Assembly: GCA_013265495.1 (NCBI GenBank)
Contig: MU057711.1
Span: 1,054,001 to 1,118,000, forward strand
DNA: 64,000 nucleotides
Direction: 5' to 3'
Source: Vicugna vicugna
Taxonomy: Eukaryota
In this document: positions 9,441 to 16,800 of the stretch, in pieces
Layout: each line of letters opens with the position of its first letter
Position numbering within the stretch: the first letter of the stretch is position 1
Notes under the pieces: model-generated
Seen by the model: only the letters and a program-made list of their open reading frames with translations
What the model was told of the DNA's origin: nothing
Database searches by the model: none
Translations under genes and position numbers: made by a program

Positions 9441-10040
9441 TTTTTAAAAAAATTGAAGTATAGTTGATTTACAATGCTGTGCTAGTTTTAAGTGTATGGC
9501 AGAGTGATTCAGTTATACGTGCATATTCTTTTTCAGATTTTTTTCCATCATAGGTTATTCCAAGATATTGAATGTAGTTCCCTGTGCTATACAGTAGGTC
9601 CTTGTTATTTGTCTGTTTTATATATAGTAGTGTGCATCTGTTAATCTCATACTGCCACTTTATCCCTTTCCCTTCTTTTGTCTCTGGTAACCATAAGTTT
9701 GTTTTCTATGTCTGTGAGTCTGTTTCTGTTTTGTAAATAAGCTCATTTATACTATTTTTATTTTGATTCTACATATAAGTGAAATCATTTGTCTTTCTCA
9801 TTATTTGTCTCTCTCTTTCTGACTTACTTCACTTACTATGATAATCTCTGGATCTATCCATGTTGCTGCAAATGGCAATATTTCATCTTTTTTATGGCCA
9901 AGTAGTAGTCCATTGTATAAACATACCACATCTTTATCCAGTCATCTGTAGATGGACATTTAGGTTGCTTCCATGTCTTGGCTATTGTCAATAGTGCTGC
10001 TATGAACCTTGGAGTGCATGTATTTTTTTGAATTAGAGTT
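9441..10040 (-). mobile_element. Cetartiodactyl-type L1 3' end (5'-truncated)
   Basis: ttgaagtatagttgatttacaatg...; ORF 9854-10111 includes [32 protein letters not shown] (ORF2 C-terminus). Confidence 0.9.
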
Positions 10041-12046
10041 TCGTTTACCTGCTGGTGAGCATTTGGGTTGTTTCCAGTTTTGGCTAATATGAGTGACACT
10101 GCCATGAACAATCCTTGTTTAAGATTTCTTGTGGCTGTATGCTTCCATTTCTCTCAGGGAGATACCTAGGAGTGGGATTGCTGAGTCACATTATAATGGG
10201 TCATCTTTAAGGAAAGTGCCAAACTACTTCTCAGAGTAACTTTGCCTTTTTACATTCCCACTAACAATGAGAACGCTGGTTGCTCCACGCCCATACTGAT
10301 GCTTGACGATGTCAGTCTTTTTAATGTTAGCTATTCTATAGGGTGTGTGGTGGTATCTCTTCATTTTGATTTTAATTTGGACTTTGTTGATGGCTAATGA
10401 TGTTGAGTATCTTTTCATATACTTTTGGACCATTTATATAAGTCTTCCTTTGTAAAGTGTCTACTCACATATTTTGCTCATTTTTAATTGGGTACTGTCT
10501 TATTATTGAATTGTGAGTTTTTTTATTTTTTAAATTTATCTGGATGCCAAACCTTTTGCAAATACAGGTATTATGAATATTTTCTCTCACTCTGTAGCTT
10601 GCTCTTTCATTTTCTTTATGATATCATTGGAAGAGCAGGAGTTAAGTTTTTTTTTGCTAAGTGGATTTTGAAGCTTTTATTTTTGCATTTTCTTTTGGTG
10701 ATGAGAAGCAGGAAGGCTATTTATTTGTTCACATAACATGTTCTCGTCCCCAGTCTTCCTCTGACCCAGTCCCCTTTGCTGTGAGTGTTTCACCACACTG
10801 CATGGGAGGGATCCATCTGTCCCCCTGACTTGCTCCCAGTCAGTCATGCCAGCCAGGAAGTGCCTTGGCCCTGACATCTCAGCTGAGGAGGCTGCCGAAG
10901 GAGAGGGGCCAGAGCTAAATCCTGGGTGAGCAAGGTAGGCTTGTGTCCCTGCTGGGGCCCTACCTTTGCAATATCTGCCACTGTGAATCTAAATAGAAAC
11001 ACCCTCTTCTTTTTCTCTGTAGCACTTATGCTGGTTTGTAATCTTACCTTGGTGGGCTTATGTATCTGTCTTTCCTACTTGACTGTCTCTGTGGGCAGGG
11101 ATCTTGTCTGTTTTAATGTCCAAGAATTTGCAAAATATTAGTGACTTTCAGAGCCCTGCTTGCCCATCACTGTGGGAGGAAGGCAGACGGTTCCCATTCT
11201 CAGGGTCCACAAGGAGTTCTGATTCGTGCCTGAGAAGGGTCCCTCGTGGATCTCTGTTCCTAGCCCAAGGTAAGTGTGCTTATCCTCTATGGGCAGGAGG
11301 CTGGGAGAACCCCACCTCTTGGCCATGTGCCTAGGGTCCTGGCCTTTGAAAACCCTGATTTTCATCTTTACCTTCTTACCTCTATTGGATCCTCTGCTGG
11401 CCTGTCAGGTGATGTCTGGAAGGGTCTCATTGCAACCATTCGGTCCCTCCTCCCATCCTCTGTCCCCTCTCTTCTTCCCATCTTTCTTCTGGGGGTCTTT
11501 TCCTGCCCCACCTCCTCTCCACTTCCCTCTTTCCAGCTGACAGATGTGGGAAAGACCTCAAAGACTCACCAGGAGACAAATTCAACTGTAAGGGCAATAA
11601 ATGTAAGCATAGATAACTATACAAATTCTAAAAGGATTCTTCATTCTTTTCAAAGTAACCCATTAAATAGTTTTTGCGATGCATTATAAATGTCCTTAAA
11701 ATTTACTGCCGTCTACTAAGATGCATGTGTCTACCTCAAATTTCACCTCAAATATCCAGGGCTGAGACTTAGGCTTTCTGGATGGATTAACCTCAAGTAA
11801 TCCAAAAGGGCTCGACGTATAGGAAGTGAAGGCACATCTAAGGAGTTTTTACGTAATCCTGGAGCAGTTTTTAATTTTGATGAAGCCCATTTTATCAAAT
11901 TGTTTCTTTTAAATTTGTGCTTTTTGTATCCTATTGAAAAACATTTTTGCCTACTTACTTCAAAATCATCTGTTTTCTTTTAGAGCTAACTTTTAAATAT
12001 AGGTCTATGATCCATTTCAAGTTAGTTTTTGTGAATGGCACGAGGT
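10041..12046 (-). mobile_element. Old L1M ORF2 relic in two colinear halves (10041-10646 and 11862-12046)
   Basis: Left half ends tttcattttctttatgatatcattggaagagcag and right half resumes gcagtttttaattttgatgaagcccattttatcaa; these are adjacent in L1M consensus text. Confidence 0.8.
10647..11861 (-). other. Poly(A)-tailed non-L1 insertion (orphan transduction or unspliced retrocopy)
   Basis: Splits an L1; T9 at 10647-10655; minus-strand AATAAA at 10676-10681 (20 nt from the tail) and 10720-10725; internal L2 relic ~11005-11125. Confidence 0.65.
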
Positions 12047-13800
12047 TGCCTTTTTATTTTGTTGATTGTTTCTTTGGCTTACAGAAGCTTGTTAGTTTGA
12101 TGTAGTCCCACTTGCTTATTTTTGCTTTTGTTGGCTGTGCTTTTGATGTCATATGTAAGAAATCGTTGCCAAGACCAATATCAATAAGGGGATTTTCCCC
12201 TGCGTTTCTCCTAGGGGTTTTATGGTTTCAGGCCTTATACTTAAGTCTTTAAGCCATTCTAAGTTAATTTTTGTGTGTGGTATAATATAAGGGTCCAATT
12301 TCATTCGTTTGCGTGTGGATGTCTAGTTGAATTCTCAACACCATCTATTGAATTTTTTGAATAGACTATCCATTCCCTATTGTGCATTCTTGGCACCCTT
12401 CTCAAAGACAGGTTGATCGTATATGCATGGCCTTATTTCTGGGCTCCCTATTCTATTCCATTGATCTATGTGTCTGCTTTTTTGCCAGGACCCTACTATT
12501 TTGATTAGTATAGCTTTGTAAATATAGTTTGAAACCAGGAAGTGTGATGCCTCCAGCTTTGTTCCTCTTTCTCTAGATTGCTTTGGCTATTCAGGGTCTT
12601 TTGTAGTTCCATATGAATTTTAGGGTTGTTTTTTCTATATCTGAAAAAATGCCATAGGAATTTTAATAGGGATAGTACTAAAGCTGTAGATTGCTTTGTG
12701 TTATTATTTCTTTCCTTATGCTTACTTTTGATTTAATTTTCCCAAGGCTGAAACTTAGATTATTCATTTTGGATCTTCTTTTCTAAGGTATGCATTTAAT
12801 GCTATACATTTTCCTTTAAGCACTGCTTTTGCTGAATCCCACACATTTTGAAAGGCATATTTTCTTTTTCATTTTGTTCAACATATTTAAAATTTTCTCT
12901 TGAGTCTAATTGCCCCATGCATTATTTTACAAGTGTTCTGTTTAATCTCCATGTATTTGAGATTTTCCAGTTATCTTTCTGTTACAGATTTCTAGTTTAG
13001 TTTTATTGTGGTCTGAGAACAGTGATTGTATGTTTGTATTTTTTTAAATTTGTCAAGATATGTTTTATGGCCCTGAATGTGGTCTATCTTGGTGAATGTT
13101 TCATGTGAGCTTAAGAAAAATGTATATTTTGCTGCTGTTGGATGAACTATTTTATAGATGTAAATTGCATCAGTTGATAGATAATGTTGTTGAGATCAAC
13201 TGTATCCTTACTGGTTTTCTGCCTGTAGGATCTGTCCATTCCTGAGAGAGGTGTTGAAGTCTCCAGCTATGGTATTGGGCTAATCTATTTCTCCTTGTAG
13301 TTCTGCCAGTTTTTGCCTCATGTAGTTTGGCTCTTTATTGTTAGGTCCATACACTCTAAACTTTCTTGGAAAATTAACCCCTTTATCATTGTGTAACTCC
13401 TTTCTTTGTCTCATATAACTTTCCTTGCTCTGAAGTCTTCTGTGTATGAGATTAATATAGCTACTACCACTTTCTTTTGGTTAGTGTTAGCATGGTGTAT
13501 TTTTATCCATCCATTTACTTTTCATCTGTATGCATATTTATATTTAAAGTGGGTTTCTTGTAGATAACATATAGTTGGATCTTGTTTTTTGATCCACTCT
13601 GGCAATCTTTGTCTTTCAGATTTGTTCATTTAGACCATGGATGTTCAAAGTGATTTTGATATAGTTGGATTAATATCTACCAATTTTGTTACTGTTTTCT
13701 ATTTGTTGCCTTCTTTTTTTGTTTCTGTTTTTGCTTTCTGCTCTTTTTTTGCCTTTTGTAATTTTAATTGACCATTTTATATTTCATTTTTATTCCTATT
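12047..13800 (-). mobile_element. Two further L1 ORF2 relics (12047-12700 and 12700-13800)
   Basis: Antisense L1 ORF2 text, e.g. agtttgatgtagtcccacttg, ccagctttgttcctctttctc, gtggtctatcttggtgaatgtttcatgtgagc. Confidence 0.85.
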
Positions 13801-13804
13801 TTTC

Positions 13805-16800
13805 TTCTTGACTTACTGAGATATAATTAACATACAACATTGTATTAGTCCGAGGTGTATAAAATGATGATTTGATATATGTGTATATTGCAAAATGACT
13901 CCCATTATAAGTTTAGTAAATATCCAACATCTCAAATAGTTACAATTTTTTTTTTAGTGATGAGAACTTTAAGATTTACTCTCATAACAGCTTTCAAAAA
14001 TACAATACAGTATTGTGAATTACAGTCACCATGATGTACATTACATTCCCAGAAATTATTTGTCTTCTAACTGGAAGTTTTTGACTACCTTAATCCATTT
14101 TCCTCAAAGTCTGCCTCTGGCAGCCATCAATATGTTTTTTGTATCAAATAGTTTCTTTTTTTACCCCCAGATTCCACATATAAGTAAGATCATACAGTAT
14201 TTGTCTTTCTCTATTTCACCTTGCATAATGCCCTAAAGATCCATCTACATTGTTGCAAATGGCAGAATTTCTTCTTTTCTACAGCTGAATAATATTCAAT
14301 TATATATATGTATATACACATTTTCTTTATTCATTCATCAGTTGATGGACACTTAGGTTGTTTCCATGTCTTAGCTATTGCAGATAATGCTGCACTGAAT
14401 ATGGGTGTATGGTGTCTTTTTGAGTTAATGATTTCATTTCCTTTAGATATATACCTAGAAGTAGGATTGCTGGATCATATGGTAGTTCTACTTTTAATTT
14501 TGTAAGGAACCTCCATACCATTTTCCATAGTGGCTGAAGCAATTTACATTCTCACCAATAAGTGTACAAGGGTTCTCTTTTCTCCACACCCTCACCAACA
14601 CTTGTTATCTCTTGTCTTTTTGATAATAACTGTCCTAACAAGTGTGAGGTGATACATCATTGTGGTTTTGATTTGCATTTCCCTGATGATTAGTATTATT
14701 GAGCACCTTTTCATGTCCTTGTTGGCCATTTGGGTGTCTTTTTTGGAACAGTGTCTACTTGATTTTTCTGTGCATTTTTTAAATATGATTTTTTTTTTGC
14801 TATTGAGTTGTGTGAGTTATTTATATTTGGGTATTAACTCCTTATCACACAGGTGATTTGTAAATATTTTCTCCCATTCAGTAGATTGCCTTTTCATTTT
14901 GTGGACGGTTTTATTTGCTGTGCAGAAGCTTTTTAATTTGATATAGTCCCACTTGTTTATTTTTGCTATTGTTGGGTGTGCTTTTGTTGTCAAATTGAAA
15001 AACTCATTGTCAAGGCTGATGTCAAGGAGCTTACCACCTAAATTTTCTTCAGGAGTTTTATTTAAGACTTTAAATCCTTTTGAGTTAATTTTTGTGTACA
15101 GTGTAAATGTAGGGGTCCAGTTTCATTCTTTTGCATGTGGCTGTCCAGTTTTCCCGACACCATTTATTGAAGAGACTATTCTTTCCTCATTGTTTATTCC
15201 TAGCTCCTTTGTCATAAATTAGTTGACTATATAAATGTGGGTTTATTTCTGGGCTCTCTATTCTGTTCCATTGACTTATGTGTCTTTTTATTTTATGCCA
15301 GTGCCATACTGTTTTGATTAGTATAACTTTGTAATATGTATGATACCAGGAGTGTGATACCTACAGCTTTTTCTTTCTCCAGATTACGTTGGCTATTCAG
15401 GGTCTTTTGTGGTTCCATATGACTTTTAGGATTTTTTGTTCTGTGAAAAATACCACTGGAATAAGAATTGCATTGAATCTGTAGTTTGCTTTGGGTAGTA
15501 TGGACATTTTAACAATATTAAATTTTCCAGTCAATGAACATGCATTTTATTTATTTGTATGTTCTTTAATTTCTTTTGGTAGTGTTTTTTCAGTTTTCAG
15601 TGTACAAGTCTTTCATCTTCTTGGTTAAGTTGATTCCTAAGTATTTGATTCTTTTTGGTGCTATTGTAAATGGGATTGTTTTCTTAATTTTCTTTTCATA
15701 GTGTCCATTGTTAGCAGATAGAAATGCAACTGATTTTGTATATTGACTTTCTATCCTGCAACTTTGCTGAATTTTTATGTAAGTTTAAACAGGTGTGTGT
15801 GTGTGTAATAATTAGGGTTTCCCATGTATATGGCTATGTCATCTGTGAACAAAGATAGTTTTACTTCTTCCTTTCTAATTTGGATAACTTGGATGTCTTT
15901 TATTTCTTTCCGTACATGATTGCTCCGGCCAGAATTTCCAATACGAATGCTGAATAGAAGTGATGGAAGTGGGGACCTTGTTTCTGATCTTAGAGGTAAA
16001 GCTTCCATCTTTAATCATTGAATATCATGTTGGCTGTAGTTTTTCATATATGACCTTTGTGATGTTGAGGTAGTTTCCTTCTGTCCCGAGTTTGCTGAAT
16101 TTTATTTTATTTTTTAAATCATGAAAGAGTATTGAATTTGTCAAATGCTTTATCAAAAGTCTCTATTGAGATAATCATGTAATTTTTTTTACTTAATCCT
16201 CTTAATGTGGTATATCATGTTGTTTTTCATATGTTGAGCTTCATATGTTCATATGCATTCCAAGAGTAAATCCCATTTAGTCATGTTTTGTAATGATTTT
16301 AATATATTGATGAATTTGGTTTGCTAGTATTTTATTGAGGATTTTTATATCAATATTTAAAAGAGATATTGATCTGCATTTTTCTTATAGTGGCTTTGTC
16401 TGGCTTTTGTACCATGGTAATGCTGGCCTTGTAGAATGACTGGGGAAGTGTTCCCTTCTCTTCAGTTTTTTGGAAGAATTTGAGAAGGATTGGTGTTCTT
16501 CTTTAAATGTTTCATAGGATTCACCAATGAAGCCACTTGGCCTGGGCGTTTTCCTTGTTGAGAAGTTCTAAATTACAGATTCAATGTTTTTAGTAGGTTT
16601 AGGTCTGTTCAGCATCTCTGTTTCTGTATGATTCAGTTTTGGGAGGGTGTGTGTTTCTAGGAATTTGTCCGTTACATTTAGGTTATCCAATTTTTTTGGT
16701 ATAAAATTGTTCATGCTACTCATTTGTAGTCCTTTTTATTTCTGTAGAATTGATAGTAATGCTCCCATTTTTAACTTATGATTTTAGTAATTTGAACCCT

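What the first reader, a model, noticed from the sequence alone, without database searches (positions are those of the whole stretch)
10647..11861. 1.2-kb foreign, poly(A)-tailed DNA inserted into an old L1: orphan transduction or unspliced retrocopy
Seen: the old L1M stops at ...ggaagagcaggagtt (10642) and resumes colinearly at gcagtttttaattttgatg (~11864). Between them is non-L1 sequence with T9 at 10647-10655 and a minus-strand AATAAA 20 nt from that tail (10676-10681); a second AATAAA is at 10720-10725. The insert contains an L2 3' relic (~11005-11125). Established: L2 activity largely predates L1M subfamilies, and L1 machinery makes orphan 3' transductions and retrocopies by target-primed reverse transcription. 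Inference: an L2 inside an L1 means this block was copied from another locus via RNA. The TSD is only degenerate (caggagttaagttttt vs ctggagcagttttt).
Basis: partly seen in the sequence, partly recalled or inferred. Interest (0 to 1): 0.72.

Follow-up and report, generated by a model that had tools for sequence, protein, structure and literature searches.

The report
Ancient retrocopy of ADCY5-intron antisense RNA
A 1.2-kb block that splits an old L1 fragment is an ancient, L1-made DNA copy of a polyadenylated RNA once transcribed antisense from intron 1 of the adenylyl cyclase 5 gene; it is an ordinary kind of genomic fossil whose source locus has now been found.

Summary
The two L1 pieces at window 10041-10643 and 11863-12045 abut each other in 2 other L1 copies in the window and in 5 of 11 genomic copies examined. 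The block between them carries T9 and a minus-strand AATAAA at the stated coordinates.

The same genome holds exactly one other copy of the block, at contig C9438:1324217-1325399 (E 4.6e-148; 73% identity over aligned columns; K2P 0.32-0.34). Homology ends at both edges of the insert. That locus keeps the AATAAA but has no T-run.

The donor lies 10.8 kb inside the 81-kb intron 1 of the ADCY5 orthologue, on the strand opposite to ADCY5. The donor and copy are colinear, with no intron-sized gap.

No L1 homology lies within 20.2 kb upstream of the donor block. I therefore favour a 5'-truncated retrocopy of an unspliced antisense or intronic transcript over an orphan L1 3' transduction.

The event is old, roughly 45-80 Myr. 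It predates the two L1 fragments that now flank the host L1.

This is a known mechanism and of low general interest. I could not test present-day expression of the donor or the state of orthologous sites in other mammals.

The parts
10041..10643 (-). Left piece of the host old L1 (ORF2-region fragment, L1 sense on the minus strand). This is its 3'-ward part.
   Evidence: Aligns at 63% to window L1 copies at 14330-14928 and 24050-23490. Aligns at 66-71% to long genomic copies (40 scored of 3089 first-look candidates).
10633..10643 (.). Left copy of the degenerate target-site duplication, GAGCAGGAGTT.
   Evidence: Read from the sequence. In copy L013 the two halves overlap by 7 nt, and in window copy 14.9k by 5 nt.
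10644..10646 (.). Three bases (AAG) between the L1 end and the T-run. They are unexplained: a mutated tail, a small insertion, or the last bases of the donor RNA (the donor has AAGT about 17 nt beyond the apparent cleavage site).
   Evidence: printed junctions.
10647..10655 (-). T9, the remnant of the poly(A) tail of the retrocopy.
   Evidence: The donor reads CATTCTTTCTC at this place, with no homopolymer.
10676..10681 (-). AATAAA poly(A) signal, 20 nt upstream of the tail. It is also kept in the donor.
   Evidence: Donor + strand GATTTTATTTTCAG in alignment A1 and.
10656..11862 (-). Body of the retrocopy: a 5'-truncated copy of an RNA antisense to intron 1 of the ADCY5 orthologue.
   Evidence: Only paralogue in the 2.03-Gb assembly is C9438:1324217-1325399 (E 7.6e-108; E 4.6e-148). 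1109 aligned columns, 73% identity, K2P 0.34.
10996..11117 (+). Older repeat relic. It looks like an L2 3' end on the + strand (my recollection only). It was carried over from the donor.
   Evidence: Aligns at 71% to donor L005:566-667. No other copy found.
11862..11872 (.). Right copy of the degenerate target-site duplication, GAGCAGTTTTT. AA follows it, giving TTTTT/AA on the + strand, the L1 endonuclease-type site for a minus-oriented insert.
   Evidence: The endonuclease consensus TTTT/AA is established knowledge that I recalled.
11863..12045 (-). Right piece of the host old L1. It continues the left piece.
   Evidence: Aligns to window 14924-15096 and 23513-23317. Adjacent to the left-half match in 5 of 11 genomic copies.

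Best explanation
Window 10647-11862 is an ancient L1-mediated retrocopy made by target-primed reverse transcription. Its template was a polyadenylated RNA transcribed from the strand opposite to ADCY5, inside ADCY5 intron 1.

Proposed sequence of events:
1. The RNA was cleaved and polyadenylated about 20 nt after an AAUAAA that the donor locus still carries.
2. L1 endonuclease nicked a TTTTT/AA site inside an older L1 ORF2 fragment.
3. The T-rich 3' end primed on the poly(A) tail.
4. Reverse transcription stopped or was truncated after about 1.2 kb.
5. The cDNA was sealed in, with a target-site duplication of about 11-14 bp.

The copy is unspliced over its whole length. It is now a neutrally decaying fossil.

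Shown: the donor, the boundaries, the signal, the strand, the colinearity of the host L1, and the relative ages.

Inferred: that L1 machinery did the copying, and that the template was an independent antisense or intronic transcript rather than read-through from an L1.
For: 1. A single donor exists. A genome-wide search with the block gives only itself and C9438:1324226-1325398. A sensitive BLAST extends this to 1324217-1325399 against window 10651-11862, E 4.6e-148.

2. Homology ends at the two insert edges. On the left it starts at TAAGTGGATTTT, just after the T9. On the right it ends at ...AATCCTGG (11862). Beyond that the donor continues with unrelated sequence.

3. The donor has the AATAAA (minus strand) in the same place but no T-run.

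4. The host L1 halves are contiguous in other copies: 2 in the window and 5 of 11 genomic. The block is therefore the insertion, which fixes the direction as donor to window.

5. The site reads TTTTT/AA, and the flanking duplication matches at 8 of 11 positions.

6. The donor lies in ADCY5 intron 1, on the antisense strand.
- The exon 1 open frame L003:8036-9484:+ matches Pfam AC_N at E 1.1e-178 and PDB adenylate cyclase type 5 (8sl3) at E 1.2e-234.
- AC_N positions 1-336 lie at C9438:1312275-1313405 (+). Positions 332-386 lie at 1394222-1394386 (+).
- Cyclase-domain exons lie on the + strand at 1.409-1.447 Mb.
- The block aligns + to +, while its tail and signal are on the minus strand.

7. 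The copy is colinear with the donor. The largest gaps are 44 and 39 bp, and none is intron-sized.

8. No L1 homology lies between the donor block and 1345571, 20.2 kb upstream.

9. The ages are consistent when measured with one tool (genome search BLAST identity).
- Copy against donor: 67%.
- Host L1 against its best long relatives: 66-71%.
- The two L1 fragments now flanking the host: 78-83% and 74-79%.
Against: - The tail is short (T9). The donor is itself T-rich at that spot (CATTCTTTCTC), so part of the run could be diverged donor sequence.
- Three bases (AAG) interrupt the junction between the L1 end and the T-run.
- The target-site duplication needs a 3-bp indel in at least one copy to fit.
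- No promoter was found for the proposed antisense RNA. The only CpG island in the 50 kb examined is the ADCY5 promoter and exon 1, at 1310500-1313500.
- No match to any Rfam family, and no Pfam hit other than ADCY5 exon 1 in the 106 open frames of 100 aa or more that were scanned.
- An old L1 fragment in the same orientation does exist 20.2 kb upstream (1345571-1346018). A source L1 closer to the donor could have been deleted since the event.
Confidence: 0.65

Rival explanations
1. Orphan L1 3' transduction. An L1 lying antisense in ADCY5 intron 1 was transcribed through its own poly(A) site. The RNA ended at the downstream AAUAAA, and severe 5' truncation left only the flanking sequence in the new copy.
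For: The hallmarks are the same as for the best explanation: tail, signal, TTTTT/AA site and duplication. An old L1 fragment in the right orientation lies upstream of the donor at C9438:1345571-1346018. Orphan transductions are defined as unique sequence downstream of an active L1 that is mobilised without the companion L1 (passages of PMC7058536 seen).
Against: The nearest L1 homology is 20.2 kb from the 5' end of the donor block. Between them, only short repeats of 201 bp or less matched. The passages seen in PMC7058536 describe the transduced DNA as 'immediately downstream' of the source. From recollection, transductions are mostly under a few kb. The upstream L1 piece found is a 448-bp fragment, and nothing shows it was ever full-length.
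Confidence: 0.2
2. A DNA-level copy with no RNA intermediate. A piece of the ADCY5 intron was captured at a double-strand break in the L1, and the T-run and AATAAA are coincidental.
For: The donor is T-rich where the copy has T9. An AAGT in the donor about 17 nt beyond the apparent cleavage site matches the AAG+T that abuts the L1 end (printed junctions). The homology might therefore run right up to the L1. The duplication is imperfect.
Against: One edge of the homology falls 20 nt (or at most about 37 nt) downstream of an AATAAA that both copies keep, on the strand that carries the T-run. The opposite junction sits at a TTTTT/AA site. The host L1 is duplicated at the junctions rather than deleted. 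All three features are expected for target-primed reverse transcription. None is expected for break repair.
Confidence: 0.08
3. No insertion at all: two unrelated L1 fragments happen to flank unique DNA.
For: The neighbourhood is a patchwork of L1 fragments of different ages.
Against: The two halves meet at the same L1 position, with a 3-7 nt overlap, in 2 window copies and 5 of 11 genomic copies. The DNA between them has a paralogue on another contig bounded exactly at the junctions.
Confidence: 0.01

Closest known systems
L1-mediated retrocopies of cellular Pol II transcripts (processed pseudogenes and retrocopies of non-coding RNAs)
   Same: The 3' end lies at a canonical poly(A) signal, with an A-tail that the donor lacks. 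There is 5' truncation, flanking duplication of the target, and a T-rich/AA nick site. The donor is on another contig.
   Different: No intron has been removed. The 1.2 kb is colinear with genomic DNA. The template is antisense to an intron of a protein-coding gene, not an mRNA. It is therefore not a 'processed pseudogene' in the strict sense.
Orphan L1 3' transductions (definition seen in passages of PMC7058536)
   Same: Unique non-L1 DNA was moved by L1 machinery with no L1 sequence attached, and it ends at a downstream poly(A) signal.
   Different: The donor is not immediately downstream of an L1. The nearest L1 homology is 20.2 kb away.
Nested repeats used for relative dating (younger elements interrupt older ones)
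   Same: An older relic shared by donor and copy sits inside a block that interrupts an old L1. Younger L1 fragments flank the whole. Identities follow this order.
   Different: The apparent paradox of an older repeat inside a younger one arises because the relic travelled inside the RNA. It did not insert here.

Membership tests
L1-mediated (TPRT) retrocopy | A donor locus elsewhere, with homology bounded at the insert edges | tested here: met
   One paralogue, C9438:1324217-1325399. Homology ends at window 10651-10660 and at 11862.
L1-mediated (TPRT) retrocopy | A 3' poly(A) tail present in the copy and absent from the donor | tested here: met
   T9 at 10647-10655 against donor CATTCTTTCTC. 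Caveat: the tail is short and the donor is T-rich there.
L1-mediated (TPRT) retrocopy | A poly(A) signal 10-30 nt upstream of the tail, also present in the donor | tested here: met
   AATAAA (minus strand) at 10676-10681, 20 nt from the tail. It is kept in the donor.
L1-mediated (TPRT) retrocopy | Target-site duplication flanking the insert | tested here: inconclusive
   GAGCAGGAGTT against GAGCAGTTTTT: 8 of 11 positions match, and a 3-bp indel is needed. The overlap of 3-7 nt in L1 coordinates of the two halves supports a duplication.
L1-mediated (TPRT) retrocopy | An L1 endonuclease-type nick site (TTTT/AA, recalled consensus) | tested here: met
   TTTTT/AA at 11868-11874 on the + strand. 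This is the strand expected for a minus-oriented insert.
Processed pseudogene (strict sense) | Introns removed relative to the donor gene; derived from an mRNA | tested here: not met
   Colinear with genomic DNA, with a largest gap of 44 bp. The donor is intronic and antisense to ADCY5. ATG-started ORFs in the block are only 66-83 aa (4 ORFs of 50 aa or more).
Orphan L1 3' transduction | The donor sequence lies immediately downstream of a source L1 in the same orientation | tested here: not met
   No L1 homology between 1325399 and 1345571. This tests only the present-day locus in this one genome.
Insertion into a single pre-existing L1 | The flanks are adjacent positions of one L1 in the same orientation | tested here: met
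   Adjacent in 2 window copies and 5 of 11 genomic copies. One copy has them 577 bp apart, and 5 gave no right-half match.
L2 3'-end relic inside the block | Similarity to the L2 consensus or to other L2 copies | not testable with these tools
   No repeat library is held. No other copies were found. The label rests on recollection.

The most novel reading that the evidence does not exclude
The retrocopy is a dated fossil of a germline-expressed, polyadenylated natural antisense RNA of ADCY5 intron 1. That RNA existed roughly 45-80 Myr ago, and its poly(A) signal is still intact at the donor. The transcript may persist today as an unannotated antisense lncRNA that could influence ADCY5.
Probability: 0.2. 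Interest if true: 0.4.

Novelty: new member of a known kind. Interest (0 to 1): 0.25.

Why it matters
The mechanism is textbook, so the value is local.
- It resolves an apparent age paradox, an older repeat relic inside an L1.
- It gives a clean worked example in which donor, strand, poly(A) site and nick site can all be read.
- It records that a polyadenylated antisense RNA from ADCY5 intron 1 was present in the germ line or early embryo of an ancestor tens of millions of years ago.

If that antisense RNA still exists, it would be a candidate regulator of ADCY5.

Tried and rejected
- RNA evidence for the donor. The look-up of sequencing runs listed 24 runs. RNA runs X1-X6 hold 0.26-0.39 of the sampled words of L002. 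The shares cannot say which part or which strand is transcribed and are no evidence either way.
- Six-frame Pfam scans of whole 10-kb loci were rejected because of stop codons. I used family searches of the genome instead.
- Rfam on L001 and L002: 0 matches at E<=0.1.
- ORFs in the block: 4 ATG ORFs of 66-83 aa, none pursued.
- CpG-island scan of C9438:1304000-1353999: only the ADCY5 promoter and exon 1. No promoter was found for the antisense RNA.
- L2 verification: a genome word search and a BLAST of 192 kb found only the block itself and the donor.
- Literature. A search for ADCY5 + antisense + lncRNA + intron 1 listed 8 of 933 papers holding at least 3 of the 4 terms. I saw only the listing and the abstract starts, and none concerned an ADCY5 antisense RNA. 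This does not show that none is in print.
- Earlier notes of this scan: none for this genome.
- A 9-nt inverted match (donor AACTCCTGC against window GCAGGAGTT at the junction) has the wrong polarity for priming. I treated it as chance.
- Sliding identity along the block ranges from 0.56 to 0.81, with no clearly constrained segment.

Full report
**The observation**

The window is mammalian, L1-rich DNA. At 10041-10643 and 11863-12045 lie two pieces of an old L1 ORF2-region fragment, with L1 sense on the minus strand.

I tested their colinearity against other L1 copies, since no consensus is held.
- In the window copy at 14330-15096, the left piece aligns to 14330-14928 and the right piece to 14924-15096. 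A second copy at 24050-23317 behaves alike (junction alignment).
- Of 11 genomic copies fetched with the left piece (40 scored of 3089 first-look candidates), 5 carry the right piece directly adjacent, with a 3-7 nt overlap or a 4-10 nt gap. One has it 577 bp away. Five gave no right-piece match.

The two pieces are therefore one L1 split by an insertion.

The L1 ends are off by one base.

**The donor**

A search of the window's own 2.03-Gb assembly with 10656-11861 returned the block itself and one other place, C9438:1324226-1325398 (E 7.6e-108). A more sensitive BLAST gave 1324217-1325399 against window 10651-11862, E 4.6e-148.

In the pairwise alignment, homology begins right after the T-run (window TAAGTGGATTTT, donor CAAGTGGATTTT). 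It ends at window 11862 (AATCCTGG, donor AACCCTGG). Beyond both points the sequences are unrelated.

The donor carries the AATAAA at the same place. Where the window has T9, the donor reads CATTCTTTCTC.

The block interrupts an L1 whose halves are contiguous elsewhere, and the donor has no tail. The direction is therefore donor to window.

Global alignment gives 1109 aligned columns, 73% identity, K2P 0.34 (0.32 without CpG sites), and gaps of at most 44 bp. There is no sign of a removed intron. Identity is fairly even along the block, 0.56-0.81 per 100 columns.

**What the donor is**

In the 50 kb around the donor, 106 open frames of 100 aa or more gave a single Pfam hit. It is L003:8036-9484 on the + strand, matching AC_N at E 1.1e-178. 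The same frame matches PDB adenylate cyclase type 5 (8sl3) at E 1.2e-234. The next best hit, type 8, is at 6.8e-9.

The exon layout on the + strand of C9438 is as follows.
- AC_N positions 1-336 lie at 1312275-1313405.
- AC_N positions 332-386 lie at 1394222-1394386.
- Cyclase-domain exons follow at 1.409-1.447 Mb.

Intron 1 of the ADCY5 orthologue thus spans about 1313406-1394221. The donor block sits 10.8 kb into it.

The block aligns + to +, whereas its tail and signal are on the minus strand. The template RNA was therefore antisense to ADCY5.

**Retrocopy or transduction**

An orphan 3' transduction needs a source L1 just upstream of the donor. The definition comes from passages of PMC7058536.

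I compared C9438:1322000-1349000 with the window and 21 L1-bearing loci.
- The only matches between the block and 1345571 were repeats of 201 bp or less.
- The first L1 homology is a 448-bp old fragment at 1345571-1346018, in the same orientation, 20.2 kb upstream.

I therefore favour a 5'-truncated retrocopy of an independent antisense or intronic Pol II transcript (0.65) over a transduction (0.2). A nearer L1 could have been lost, and I found no promoter. The only CpG island is ADCY5's own.

A DNA-level capture (0.08) is disfavoured for three reasons.
- The poly(A) signal lies 20 nt from the boundary.
- The opposite junction is at a TTTTT/AA site.
- The target is duplicated rather than lost.

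In favour of the DNA-level reading:
- the tail is short;
- the donor is T-rich at that spot;
- AAG interrupts the junction;
- the duplication (GAGCAGGAGTT against GAGCAGTTTTT) needs a 3-bp indel.

**Age**

A K2P of 0.32-0.34 is the sum of two branches. At recalled mammalian neutral rates of 2.2-3.5e-9 per site per year, this is about 45-80 Myr. The lineage's own rate is unknown.

The nesting order agrees with this when measured by the same tool's identity.
- Copy against donor: 67%.
- Host L1 against its best long relatives: 66-71%.
- Flanking L1 fragments: 78-83% and 74-79%.

It therefore travelled inside the RNA, which removes the age paradox. The L2 name itself is only recalled.

**What could not be done**
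- No other mammalian genome is held, so presence or absence at orthologous sites is untested.
- No repeat library is held, so subfamily names are not given.

**Verdict**

The thing itself is an ordinary, very old L1-mediated retrocopy. The one particular of note is its source, an antisense RNA of ADCY5 intron 1.

Noticed in passing
window 9441-10040 and 12046-~13789: The host L1 with its insert (10041-12045) is sandwiched between two other minus-sense L1 fragments.

Their L1 coordinates overlap those of the host. Measured on the copy at 14170-15496, the overlap is about 109 bp on the left and about 213 bp on the right.

The two flanking fragments are not one element.
- The best relatives of the left fragment (81-83% identity) match the right fragment at only 63-65%.
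- The best relatives of the right fragment (76-79%) match the left fragment at 70-72%.

The left fragment looks like an ordinary 5'-truncated insertion with its 3' end near 9441. The right fragment lacks its 3' end, and the host L1 lacks its own 3' part. How these junctions arose is unexplained. Candidates are deletions between L1s, target-site deletion on insertion, or mis-assembly.
   Followed up: partly
G000:C9438:1310500-1313500 (L003:6500-9500): This is the CpG island and 483-codon open first exon of the ADCY5 orthologue. Intron 1 is about 81 kb long.
   Followed up: yes
window 13790-15496: Another L1 with a complete-looking 3' UTR end begins at about 13800, directly after the previous L1 fragment. 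I used it here as a coordinate ruler.
   Followed up: no
L002/L005: donor C9438:1324196-1324208 against window 10635-10643: A 9-nt inverted match sits next to the junction: donor + strand AACTCCTGC against window GCAGGAGTT. It has the wrong polarity to have guided priming, so it is probably chance (print-out).
   Followed up: partly
G000:C9438:1325400-1325520 (L002 about 2675-2800): The 5' end of the copied segment falls next to sequence in the donor that resembles a common mammalian interspersed repeat (recollection only, not named). The copy's 5' end looks like a truncation point rather than a transcription start.
   Followed up: no
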